This document shows, piece by piece, positions 39,001-42,000 of a stretch of 63,538 nucleotides of DNA. A program made the position numbers. Each line of letters starts with the position of its first letter. Within the stretch, counting starts at the first letter, position 1. The stretch is taken from the NCBI GenBank assembly GCA_030324005.1, contig JARDVH010000115.1, positions 48,740,246-48,803,783 of the forward strand, in the 5' to 3' direction. This DNA is from Negaprion brevirostris (Eukaryota).

Positions 39001-42000
39001 CAGGGAATCCAATTGTAACATTATACTTAAAAGTAACTCTTGAGGCGGTGTGCTTGTTGTGTTACCTCAGCCGTTCAGGGTTCTTCAAAGTCAAATGTTA
39101 TTCATTATTTATAGTATAAAAATATAGAAATGAAATGCATTTTTTATCAGAAAACTTGATAAAGAAATAATCATTTTCATTTTTTAATTCAAATGATTTG
39201 GACCAGAGATAGGAAATTGTCCAACGGTGATGGTGCGATTGGATGCATTGCCCACTCCACATGTCTAAAGAGACTTAATGCAACTCTGTCTTTCAGATTC
39301 ATTTGTGTGTTACCTATGCACTGTGGCATCAGTTGCAGCTTCAGAGGCCAAATGTGGAATGAAGCAAAATCTACTGCTTTTCATGTTGGCTCAGGGCCAA
39401 AGGTAAGTCTGGGAAATAGATCTGGTTGATGACTCTAGTTTCACATGAATCTTGGAAGTTTCATCAATCAACTATTTGCTTCCGACCACCTTGTTCAGTC
39501 AGATATCCTTTCCCGCTCTACCACAGTGAACTTATAACCATCAAATCTATTCAAAATACATGAAAAACACACACCATTGTTTCATACCCCTGTGATTTTT
39601 CTCCTGGAATGTTTGCAGCAATGTTCAGGAGATTAATCTTTAATCCCTGGAGATACTGGGAGGATTATTGACAAGCCTAAAGGGAGAGATGAGTTAACAG
39701 AGAGGGAGCCGGTAGCAACTCGAAGTTTTAATGTGGATATAGGAGAAATAGTCCTAGTTCCACACTTGGGTAAGTGCAAATCTTTTGACTTAACCTTTGG
39801 CTAGTAGCTCTAGTCTCCTTTTTAAGATCCTTGATTTGGCTGCTGTGTGCCTGAGAAAACATATTGTAGCATGAGCAGCACATGTTGAACTCATTTGAAG
39901 CCCAATTTCACAAAGACACCTGAAAGAGATATAAGGCCCCTGATTTGCAATGGTAATGAACCTAATTCCTGCTTCATGCATATAAAAATCATTACACAGG
40001 ATAAAAGGGAATTTACACTGATTATTTGGAACAACTAATTTATGTTCATTACAAGTTAGGCAAGCATTGAAGCTAATTTATCAAATCAGGCATTATTTAG
40101 AATAATGTCATTTTCCATTCAAATATTTTGGGGATTTGGGAGGGAACCATATCAGAATCAAGTTAATAATAGCAAAATACACATTATAACAAATTTCAAC
40201 AAAATTCCCATAATTATGATCTATGCTTTGAAAGGATAAATGATTTGGTAAATATTTTCATGAATAACATCCTTTAAACATTTAGAGTTTATGAGCCCAT
40301 TATTTTCAGTGACAATAAACCCAAGTAGTTAAGTTCTGCGTGTAGTGGAATGTAAATACCAAATTAATGAATACACAAAGTCAACCCCATGCTATTCTCC
40401 TTCAACATCTCTGTTTTTTATCATAGAATCATAGAACCCTACAGTGCAGAAAGGGGTCATTTGGCCCATTGAGTCTGCACTGAATGCAATCCCACCCAGG
40501 CCCTACCCCCCAATCCCTACATATTTACCCACTAATCCCTCTAACCTATGCATCCCAGGACACCGAGGGGCAATTTTTTAGCATGGCCAATCAACCTAAC
40601 CCGCACATCTTTGGACTTTCTAGTCAAATGGGCCTATTCTTTTCTAGTTCTGCTCAAAATTACCCAGTTTTATCAAAAAAATTCTGCAATAATTTTTTCC
40701 TCCATGTACTATTTCCAAGGCTCTATTCGTAGCCCACTCCTATTTCTCATCTACATATTGTCCCTGCATGTCATCATCTGGCAGCACTCAGCTCCAACTC
40801 ACCACTATTTCCCTTGATTCCTCCAAGGTCTGTGTTGTCAAACTCCTTGCTTGACAGCTAGATCTATGTGTCTCATGATTCCCATCCCTTAAACATTTAA
40901 AAGATTGAAGTCATTGTCTTCGATCCCATCATAAACTCCATTTCTGAGTCACCAATTTTTACCCCTCTTGCTGGGCATGGTAATGGACTGAATCTNNNNN
41001 NTTTCAACCATGGATTCCTACATGGACTCTGAACTGAGCTTCTGACTCATATCCACGCTTTCAAAAATATCACTTTCATATCTCTCATCTCTGCCTCAAT
41101 TTAACTGCTGCTACAGCACCCTCATTTTTCTTACCCCTGCTGTCAGCTATTATGATACCCTTCTTAAAGGCATTCCATCTCCTAATCTCTTTAAAATCTA
41201 AGTTCACCTAAAACTCTGCTGTATTCCAATCTGCACAAAGTCAATTTAAGCTAACACTCCCAGCTCCTCACTTACATTGCCTCCTGTTCCACCAACACCT
41301 AATTTTAAAATGACCATCCTCATGTTTAAAATCTCATGAGCTTCCTCTTTCTATCTGTGTAACCTGATCCATCCAAGAACTCTAGGTATATTGACCTCTT
41401 ATCCAATCCCCTCTCATTTTGCCCCAACGTTGGCCGCAATATCTTTAGTTAACTGGAACTTTTGTATTAACCTTTCCGACTCCTTCTTGGCCTATTGACT
41501 AAGATCAAGTGTAGTTTTGCTGTGCTGCACTTGGTCAAAATGATGAGGTTACACTGAGGCTTAATTTGAAACAACTTTTTAAAGTGGCATCTAGGCCTTT
41601 TGGCTAAGATGCAAATAAGATCAATCCTTGGAGATGCAATGCCTGCTCCAATCAGCTTGAATCATGTAGATCAAGCCCCAGCCAGCCTGTCTTGTCAGCT
41701 TGGATTTGGAATGTCCCACTTGTTGAGACTTTACACTTTGATTGGATATAAACAAAAAAAAACTTTTCCAAATCTTCCCCCCGCCCCTCAAATGCTCCTT
41801 AAAACTCGTTGACCAGGCTTTCAGTCATCTATCCTATTGTCTCCATCTCTGTTTGCCTTGTGATGAATGCTCTCCTGTTATTTGCATGAGATGTTTTCAT
41901 TAATATTAACGGAGCTTTACAAATGCAAGTGATTGTTGTTATTACATACAATAACTGGTGAAAGCCACTTCCAAACTTTTATCAGGATTCCTAGCAGTCC

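What the first reader, a model, noticed from the sequence alone, without database searches (positions are those of the whole stretch)
41479..41760. Candidate U2 snRNA-headed SINE / non-autonomous Keno-Utopia-like retroposon in a shark
Seen: the element begins with U2 nt 1-37 (31/37; nt 5-37 30/33). U2 homology stops after GTGTAGT, inside the branch-point recognition sequence. About 230 bp of mostly non-U2 body and an A-tail follow. It is flanked by an imperfect direct repeat (AACCTTTCCG 41469-41478 / AACTTTTCCA 41761-41770, possibly extending to 14 bp) and interrupts an old L2 3' end. Established: Keno (Tx1 clade) and Utopia retrotransposons insert in U2 genes at about nt 37-38, and snRNA-headed SINEs (SINEU) were described in crocodilians. 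Inference: a short parasite inserted in a U2 gene is transcribed from the external U2 promoter, and the chimeric RNA is retroposed elsewhere. I know of no such family described from sharks, but cannot check repeat libraries.
Basis: partly seen in the sequence, partly recalled or inferred. Interest (0 to 1): 0.85.

Follow-up and report, generated by a model that had tools for sequence, protein, structure and literature searches.

The report
U2 snRNA-headed retroposon in a shark
A short, old, poly(A)-tailed retrocopy upstream of a shark FOXA1 gene carries two separate copies of the first 27-37 bases of U2 spliceosomal RNA, which resembles the snRNA-headed SINEU elements so far described only in crocodilians, but a single locus cannot show that it belongs to a repeat family.

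Summary
The core observation holds. Window 41479-41515 matches U2 snRNA positions 1-37 at 31 of 37 bases (31.5 bits alone). It is the only Rfam match with E<=1 in the whole window. An A-tail (41750-41762) and an 8/10 direct repeat flank the element; 114 of 19175 random pairs matched as well.

New points:
- A second U2 5' fragment (positions 1-27) lies at 41584-41610.
- Nothing else in the body is U2, so this is not a U2 pseudogene.
- U2 nt 25-37 of head 1 pairs over 13 bp with 41524-41536.
- A copy of the "A-tail plus target repeat" junction sits just before head 2. This suggests two tandem insertions.

The anatomy matches crocodilian SINEU, which shows recurrent U2 additions and tandem copies sandwiching a target duplication (Kojima 2015).

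The window is a carcharhiniform-like shark FOXA1 locus. No second copy exists in the window. No eukaryotic genome or repeat library was available, so family status, the LINE partner and catalogue status are untested.

That model is not excluded.

The parts
41469..41478 (+). Left copy of the target-site duplication (AACCTTTCCG). It may extend 2 nt into 41479-41480.
   Evidence: 8 of 10 identical to 41761-41770. 114 of 19175 random pairs matched as well in 7 registers. It is preceded by TT, so the target reads TT/AA.
41479..41515 (+). U2 head 1: U2 snRNA positions 1-37, comprising the 5' end, stem-loop I and the branch-point recognition sequence up to GUAGU.
   Evidence: Rfam RF00004: 31.5 bits alone and 39.5 bits in context. 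31 of 37 bases are identical to the model consensus. One stem-loop I pair is broken.
41516..41568 (+). Non-U2 body following head 1 (53 nt). 41524-41536 is complementary to U2 nt 25-37 of head 1, giving a 13-bp hairpin with an 8-nt loop.
   Evidence: No significant Rfam family. Adds about 1 bit to the U2 score. Hairpin seen in the MFE and centroid folds and as inverted repeat I2. 21 of 5000 shuffles and 17 of 4827 random 68-mers pair as long.
41569..41583 (+). Internal junction: an A-rich stretch (AAACAA) followed by a third copy of the target repeat (AACTTTTTAAA, 41573-41583). Possibly the A-tail of unit A plus a sandwiched TSD.
   Evidence: 41569-41584 matches the 3' junction 41757-41772 at 12 of 16 bases. 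60 of 5000 shuffles reach this anywhere in the element, and 6 of 5000 in a 32-nt stretch. Direct repeat D3.
41584..41610 (+). U2 head 2: U2 snRNA positions 1-27 (the 17-base core GGCCTTTTGGCTAAGAT is exact).
   Evidence: Body-only cmscan: 22.5 bits, E 0.0091, with model positions 1-27 aligned here. The 17-mer occurs twice in the window, only at the two heads; 0 of 100 shuffles gave 2 matches.
41611..41749 (+). Non-U2 tail (139 nt) with short internal direct repeats. Its origin is unknown; presumably the 3' part of a LINE, SINE or other poly(A) RNA.
   Evidence: No U2 or other Rfam match at E<=10 better than E 1.6. No protein relatives for the two open frames tested. Repeats D2, D4, D5.
41750..41762 (+). 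A-tail (AAACAAAAAAAAA). The last two A overlap the right TSD copy.
   Evidence: Read directly.
41761..41770 (+). Right copy of the target-site duplication (AACTTTTCCA, perhaps extending to 41772).

Best explanation
The locus holds an old SINEU-like, snRNA-headed retroposon. It is either one composite element or, as I think slightly more likely, two units inserted one after the other into the same target site.

Structure under the two-unit reading:
- Unit A, about 41479-41574: U2 nt 1-37, then 53 nt, then AAACAA.
- Unit B, 41584-41762: U2 nt 1-27, then 139 nt, then A13.
- A copy of the target duplication is sandwiched between them.

Shown:
- Two 3'-truncated U2 5' fragments, each starting at or within 2 nt of U2 nt 1.
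- No other U2 sequence in the body.
- An A-tail and a roughly 10-bp TSD at a TT/AA site.
- Three T-runs of 4 or more, and no tRNA-like or other pol III head.

Inferred:
- Integration was by target-primed reverse transcription by a poly(A)-using LINE of the L1 or Tx1 type.
- The U2 heads were acquired when the reverse transcriptase reached the 5' end of its template and switched onto U2 snRNA, in the single-stranded stretch just after stem-loop I (nt 27-37), then copied it to the cap.
- For head 1 the switch was guided by the donor RNA's 5' region being base-paired to U2 nt 25-37. That would leave the hairpin seen today.
- Transcription of any master copy would need an outside pol II promoter, as proposed for SINEU.
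For: - U2 heads.
- Absence of U2 3' domains: the tail alone gives no U2 hit at E<=10, and the spacer adds about 1 bit.
- Retroposition hallmarks: A-tail and TSD.
- Hairpin between U2 nt 25-37 and 41524-41536: 13 bp, 3 of them G-U in the sense strand only. 21 of 5000 shuffles and 17 of 4827 random segments do as well.
- Internal junction copy just 5' of head 2: 12 of 16, reached by 6 of 5000 shuffles in a 32-nt stretch.
- T-runs at 41515-41518, 41576-41580 and 41598-41601. No tRNA.
- Published parallels in PMC4494074 (Results and Discussion read): recurrent 5' additions of short U2/U1 pieces in SINEU-1, tandem SINEU-3 copies sandwiching a TSD, poly(A) tails, internal oligo-T, about 10-bp TSDs, and template switching favoured for head addition.
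- Published parallel in PMC4476161 (passages read): snRNA truncations in retrocopies cluster in single-stranded segments, and switching onto U5 is internal.
Against: - Only one locus was seen. No second copy of the body or tail is in the 63.5-kb window, so a propagating family is not shown.
- Units A and B should share a 3' end if they belong to one family. Their alignment is colinear but not significant: 106 of 2000 and 150 of 2000 shuffles and 250 of 2866 random segments score as well. Anchored tests gave 122-153 of about 3000 at 30 nt.
- The internal-junction and hairpin statistics are post hoc.
- Head 1 ends one base from the Keno/Utopia target site. The read-through model predicts this; my model explains it only through the hairpin.
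- No LINE partner was identified.
Confidence: 0.5

Rival explanations
1. First reader's model. A short non-autonomous Keno- or Utopia-like element sat in a U2 gene at nt 37-39 and was transcribed from the external U2 promoter as U2(1-37)+element+poly(A). That chimeric RNA was then retroposed here.
For: - Head 1 ends at nt 37. Utopia and Keno share a 3' junction before U2 nt 39, so nt 1-38 is expected upstream (PMC4640811, section 6).
- 5' junctions of such elements vary (same section), which could accommodate head 2.
- Crocodilian SINEU are tied to Keno-related Tx1 LINEs, some of which carry U2 heads themselves (PMC4494074).
- A weak possible extension of U2 homology appears when read by eye against the consensus: CTGTGCT against model positions 40-46, 6 of 7 after a 2-nt gap. 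It would fit a TSD-bearing insertion in U2.
- An external promoter solves the transcription problem.
Against: - Head 2 ends at nt 27.
- No U2 nt 39+ and no U2 gene anywhere in the window.
- No similarity of the body to any LINE protein. UTR similarity could not be tested.
- The hairpin needs a separate explanation.
- The papers read describe no such read-through family. A find in PMC4640811 for non-autonomous, co-transcription, promoter and SINEU gave 0 hits.
Confidence: 0.2
2. One-off chimeric retrocopy. A single retrotransposition event with several template switches (tail RNA to U2, to a 68-nt RNA, to U2 again) produced a unique insert, like U6/L1 chimeras in mammals. No family exists.
For: - Single locus in the window.
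- snRNA/LINE and snRNA/SINE chimeras with TSDs are known in several vertebrates, and U2 cases exist but are rare (PMC4476161 passages; PMC4494074 Discussion).
- The two heads differ from each other at 8 of 27 positions, compared by eye from the sequences printed, and share no derived change. That is as expected for independent captures.
Against: - Three switches in one event are needed.
- The internal copy of the A-rich/TSD junction points to two integration events at the same target, which is improbable for unrelated one-off chimeras.
- 63.5 kb is far too little sequence to say the insert is single-copy.
Confidence: 0.25
3. Degenerate full-length U2 retropseudogene with an A-tail.
For: cmscan aligned the full model (1-192) over 41479-41667.
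Against: - The head alone gives 31.5 of the 39.5 bits.
- Head plus the next 73 bases (to 41588) gives 32.6 bits.
- The tail alone gives no U2 match at E<=10.
- When head 1 is removed the model re-anchors on head 2 with a different 3' alignment, so the 3' alignment is opportunistic.
- Part of the "stem-loop III" alignment is actually the second U2 5' fragment.
Confidence: 0.03

Closest known systems
SINEU-1 of crocodilians, especially the U2-headed SINEU-1J and the U2+U2 SINEU-1F (Kojima 2015, PMC4494074)
   Same: - Short retroposon under 500 bp with a short 5' U2-derived piece.
- Further U2 pieces added at the 5' end, and partial duplications inside the head.
- Poly(A) tail and roughly 10-bp TSDs.
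- Internal oligo-T and no pol III promoter.
   Different: - Host is a shark rather than a crocodilian.
- Family status is unknown here.
- Sequence relation of the tail to the SINEU-1 3' region could not be tested (figures and supplements not held).
- The LINE partner and any target preference are unknown.
Tandem SINEU-3 insertions and Tx1-Mar target-specific LINEs (PMC4494074)
   Same: Two head-bearing units in tandem with a copy of the target duplication between them. This is typical of target-specific non-LTR elements that re-use the regenerated target.
   Different: - SINEU-3 is an internally deleted U2 (32 + 83 bp of U2). Here only nt 1-37 and 1-27 are U2.
- The target here is a T/C-rich motif in an unidentified old repeat, not Mariner-N4_AMi.
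- The tandem reading rests on one locus.
snRNA/LINE chimeric retrocopies and 3'-truncated snRNA retropseudogenes (Buzdin 2002 and Garcia-Perez 2007 as cited in PMC4494074; Doucet 2015, PMC4476161)
   Same: - snRNA piece at the 5' end, in the same orientation as a poly(A)-tailed 3' part.
- Flanked by a TSD.
- Truncation in a single-stranded snRNA segment.
   Different: - Those are independent one-off events, mostly with U6. U2 cases are rare.
- Here there are two U2 pieces and a possible second integration.
Keno (Tx1 clade) and Utopia (NeSL clade), U2-gene-specific LINEs (PMC4640811)
   Same: The U2 break of head 1 (nt 37) lies next to their shared insertion site (before nt 39).
   Different: - Those are autonomous LINEs sitting inside U2 genes, with U2 nt 39+ downstream.
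- This is a 282-bp non-coding insert in a non-U2 target with no U2 downstream.
- No sequence similarity could be tested.

Membership tests
SINEU (snRNA-headed SINE, Kojima 2015) | 5' head derived from U1 or U2 snRNA | tested here: met
   U2 positions 1-37 at 41479-41515 (31.5 bits). Second fragment, positions 1-27, at 41584-41610.
SINEU (snRNA-headed SINE, Kojima 2015) | Short non-coding retroposon with a 3' poly(A) tail and TSD | tested here: met
   282 bp. A-tail at 41750-41762. TSD 8 of 10. No protein relatives of the open frames.
SINEU (snRNA-headed SINE, Kojima 2015) | Multi-copy family whose copies share the same head/body junctions, not a sum of independent chimeras | not testable with these tools
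   No eukaryotic genome or repeat library was available. Within the window there is no second copy.
SINEU (snRNA-headed SINE, Kojima 2015) | Recurrent 5' addition of snRNA pieces and/or tandem copies sandwiching a TSD | tested here: inconclusive
   Two U2 5' fragments. Internal junction copy 12 of 16, reached by 6 of 5000 shuffles in a 32-nt stretch. One locus only, and the test is post hoc.
SINEU (snRNA-headed SINE, Kojima 2015) | No pol III promoter; internal oligo-T | tested here: met
   Three runs of 4-5 T. No tRNA-like head. No 5S or 7SL match at E<=1.
SINEU (snRNA-headed SINE, Kojima 2015) | Sequence homology to a crocodilian SINEU consensus; mobilisation by Tx1 LINEs with a shared target | not testable with these tools
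   Consensus sequences are in figures, supplements and Repbase, none of which were available. No Tx1 sequence was at hand.
Non-autonomous Keno/Utopia derivative | U2 break at the Keno/Utopia site (nt 38/39) | tested here: inconclusive
   Head 1 ends at nt 37, within 1 nt. Head 2 ends at nt 27. Site taken from PMC4640811, section 6.
Non-autonomous Keno/Utopia derivative | Copies in U2 genes followed by U2 nt 39 onward | tested here: not met
The flank after the A-tail is the repeated target, not U2. No other U2-like sequence is in the window.
Non-autonomous Keno/Utopia derivative | 5' or 3' ends homologous to a Keno, Tx1 or Utopia LINE | not testable with these tools
   No repeat library. Translated tail frames gave 0 hits, which says little about UTR-derived sequence.
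U2 snRNA gene or full-length pseudogene (Rfam RF00004) | Reaches the gathering score and has the Sm site and 3' stem-loops | tested here: not met
   39.5 bits against a gathering score of 46. The tail alone gives no U2 hit. The spacer adds about 1 bit.

The most novel reading that the evidence does not exclude
Sharks harbour a SINEU-type lineage of U2-headed retroposons, driven by a target-specific poly(A) LINE (Tx1-like). This LINE repeatedly integrates at one T/C-rich motif of an abundant old repeat, giving tandem copies. Its snRNA heads are captured because the 5' end of the donor RNA is base-paired to the branch-point-recognition region of U2 snRNA. The reverse transcriptase then steps from the donor's 5' end straight onto the annealed U2 at nt 37. 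If so, this would be the first mechanistic footprint of how snRNA heads are acquired. It would also push snRNA-headed retroposons back to, or show their independent origin in, cartilaginous fish.
Probability: 0.2. Interest if true: 0.7.

Novelty: new member of a known kind. Interest (0 to 1): 0.45.

Why it matters
snRNA-headed retroposons (SINEU) are the one SINE-like class without a pol III head. In the papers I could search and read they are reported only from crocodilians. How they gain their heads and how they are transcribed are stated open questions (PMC4494074, Discussion).

A shark family with the same architecture would show one of two things. Either the class is old, or it arises repeatedly wherever Tx1/L1-type LINEs meet U2.

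This copy also carries two features that bear on mechanism and can be tested genome-wide:
- the hairpin between U2 nt 25-37 and the adjoining body;
- the sandwiched target repeat.

If it proves to be a single chimeric retrocopy, it is an ordinary by-product of LINE activity.

Tried and rejected
- **Second copy in the window.** blastn with word size 7 for the element and both flanks found nothing better than 25-28 bits, E>=0.057. nhmmer with the flanks found only the flanks themselves.
- **Full-length U2 pseudogene.** Rejected.
- **Spacer as another small RNA.** Only weak C/D-box snoRNA-like matches, best E 0.79-9. The ATGATGA and CTGA boxes are 7 nt apart, too close for a snoRNA. Rejected as chance.
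- **Spacer as U2's Sm-site region.** Adds about 1 bit. Rejected.
- **Units A and B sharing a 3' tail.** The alignment is colinear but not significant. Left open.
- **Tail as a remnant of a LINE ORF.** The 64-aa frame found no candidate (only proteins of 35-112 aa were searched). The 47-aa frame that ends in a stop just before the A-tail gave 0 hits among 1.84 billion representatives. A Pfam scan of the element's frames failed on a coordinate slip and I did not repeat it.
- **HDV-like ribozyme at the U2/body junction, as in R2 (recalled idea).** No ribozyme family appeared at E<=10. Not pursued further.
- **Other snRNA-headed fragments in the window.** None at E<=1.
- **Literature on SINEU or U2-headed SINEs outside crocodilians or in sharks.** Searches. 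None of the listings or the passages I read report one.
- **Not checked.**
  - Only openly licensed papers and preprints were searched.
  - Repbase Reports and Dfam were not available.
  - Supplements, and the figures of PMC4494074 that show the head alignments, could not be seen.
  - Genome contigs holds only bacteria and archaea, so I did not use it.
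Full report
**Where we are.** The window carries a large forkhead exon at 25455-26753 on the minus strand, with Forkhead_N, Forkhead and HNF_C domains (1 of 12 ORFs scanned had any Pfam hit). Its translation is 96% identical to HNF3-alpha/FOXA1 of Mustelus asterias, 85% to Carcharodon carcharias and 83% to Scyliorhinus torazame. 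I searched this single exon only and did not join it to any other exon. The window is therefore a FOXA1 locus of a shark close to the houndsharks. The element lies about 15 kb from that exon on the opposite strand. No N run touches it; the nearest are 40996-41001 and 42206-42242.

**The observation.**
- 41479-41515 aligns to positions 1-37 of the Rfam U2 model with 31 of 37 identical bases. The last 17 are exact.
- The head alone scores 31.5 bits.
- In a permissive search of the whole window against 4227 families this is the only match with E<=1 (39.5 bits, E 1.9e-4).
- It stays below the gathering score (46), and no family reaches gathering anywhere in the window.
- The A-tail is 41750-41762.
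- The flanking repeat AACCTTTCCG / AACTTTTCCA matches 8 of 10. Of 19175 random pairs at the same spacing, 114 did as well in any of 7 registers. An unconstrained test was weaker: 6.0% of 4787.
- The duplication starts with AA and is preceded by TT. From general knowledge of L1-type endonuclease sites, that is the kind of target that poly(A)-priming LINEs use.
- I could not verify that the host sequence is an L2 3' end. The window has no other copy of it and no repeat library was available. The resemblance I recall is not a test.

With head 1 removed, the U2 model re-anchors at 41584-41610 on positions 1-27 (22.5 bits, E 0.009). The 17-base core GGCCTTTTGGCTAAGAT is exact there. It occurs in the window only at the two heads, and 0 of 100 shuffles gave two matches. 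Both fragments begin at or within two bases of U2 nt 1.

Nothing else is U2:
- The 139-nt tail alone gives no U2 match at E<=10.
- The 68-nt stretch between the heads has no significant family and adds about 1 bit to the head's score.

So the full-length alignment is opportunistic, and the element is not a decayed U2 pseudogene.

**Two further features.**

First, the hairpin. In the predicted fold (MFE -78.2 kcal/mol, z -2.24, 4 of 200 shuffles as low), U2 nt 25-37 of head 1 (41503-41515) pair over 13 consecutive base pairs with 41524-41536, across an 8-nt loop. The repeat finder reports the same arms (I2). Three of the pairs are G-U, which works only in the sense-strand RNA. A stem this long between the head and a 68-mer arose in 21 of 5000 shuffles and in 17 of 4827 random window 68-mers.

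Second, the internal junction. The 16 bases just before head 2 (41569-41584, AAACAACTTTTTAAAG) repeat the element's 3' junction, meaning the end of the A-tail plus the right target copy (AAAAAACTTTTCCAAA), at 12 of 16. This was reached by 60 of 5000 shuffles anywhere in the element and by 6 of 5000 within a 32-nt stretch.

Read plainly, the locus looks like: target copy, unit A, target copy, unit B, target copy. Both tests were devised after seeing the sequence and carry that caveat. If units A and B were siblings they should share a 3' end. Their alignment is colinear from the head junction to the AAACAA, but it is not significant.

**Comparison with what is known.** Kojima 2015 (PMC4494074; abstract, Results and Discussion read) describes SINEU in crocodilians:
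- They are short poly(A)-tailed retroposons with U1 or U2 heads.
- SINEU-1 subfamilies were built by repeated 5' addition of short U1/U2 pieces. SINEU-1J has one short U2 piece; SINEU-1F has a further U2 piece added.
- There are partial duplications inside heads.
- TSDs are about 10 bp.
- Internal oligo-T argues against pol III transcription.
- Tandem SINEU-3 copies sandwich a TSD.
- They are mobilised by Keno-related, target-specific Tx1 LINEs, some of which carry the same U2 head.
- The author favours template switching for head addition and leaves transcription open.

Every structural point that I could test is met here (see the membership table). The defining point, a multi-copy family with shared junctions, could not be tested.

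Other papers bear on the head boundary:
- The Utopia paper (PMC4640811, section 6 and passages read) gives the shared Keno/Utopia 3' junction as just before U2 nt 39 and says 5' junctions vary.
- Doucet 2015 (PMC4476161, passages read) shows that snRNA retrocopies truncate in single-stranded segments and that switching onto U5 is internal. From general knowledge of U2 structure, nt 27-37 is the single-stranded stretch after stem-loop I.

**Mechanism.** I commit to the following, at roughly even odds overall.

Shown:
- A retroposed insert with U2 5' fragments at the 5' ends.
- A poly(A) tail and a TSD.
- No pol III head, and three T-runs.

Inferred:
- A poly(A)-using LINE (L1 or Tx1 type) integrated it by target-primed reverse transcription.
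- At the 5' end of its template the enzyme switched to U2 snRNA and copied it to nt 1.
- For head 1, the donor's 5' region was annealed to U2 nt 25-37. The enzyme read through the duplex, ran off the donor 8 nt later, and continued on U2 from nt 37. This reproduces the stem, the loop and the break point in one step.
- The sandwiched junction suggests two integrations at one regenerated target, which implies a target-preferring LINE and more than one active U2-headed RNA.

It explains nt 37 and the transcription problem. It does not explain head 2's break at nt 27 or the hairpin, and nothing I could run ties the body to Keno. A one-off multi-switch chimera is about 0.25.

**Novelty and limits.** Searches, and the passages I read, turned up no SINEU or U2-headed SINE outside crocodilians.
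- A 2017 review still lists them as crocodilian (PMC5381603, passage).
- The 2018 Repbase overview only names the class (PMC5753468, passage).

These searches do not cover Repbase Reports, Dfam or subscription journals. Supplements and figures were not available. I had no shark genome or repeat library.

I therefore rate this a probable new member of a known kind. Interest is moderate and would rise if the genome-wide tests show a family with the hairpin and a preferred target.

Noticed in passing
window 25455-26753 (-): Large coding exon of FOXA1 (HNF3-alpha), 96% identical to Mustelus asterias. It contains a His-Pro repeat ([16 protein letters not shown]). A 10-base N run (26723-26732) lies just upstream of the coding part.
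   Followed up: partly
window 25710-26690 (+): A 326-codon open frame antisense to the FOXA1 exon, with no Pfam match. Probably a by-product of the exon's composition.
   Followed up: no
window 56212-57237 (+): A 341-codon stop-free frame with no Pfam match, overlapped by a 156-codon frame on the other strand. Not examined further.
   Followed up: no
window 41540-41557 (+): C-box-like ATGATGA and D-box-like CTGA, 7 nt apart, in the stretch between the two U2 heads. Only weak snoRNA matches (E 2.5-9). Taken as chance.
   Followed up: partly
window 41618-41627 and 41668-41677 (+): AGATCAATCC and AGATCAAGCC in the tail repeat the AGATCAAG of U2 nt 25-32 (repeat D5). The tail also has repeats D2 (41627-41641 / 41699-41713) and D4 (41652-41662 / 41695-41705). 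Their origin is unexplained; they may be traces of further partial head duplications.
   Followed up: no
window 41900-41960 (+): The host repeat appears to end here in a short TTG-rich stretch after ...CAAATGCAAGTGATTGTTGTT. From recall this looks like the 3' end of a common elasmobranch LINE/SINE tail. Not tested.
   Followed up: no
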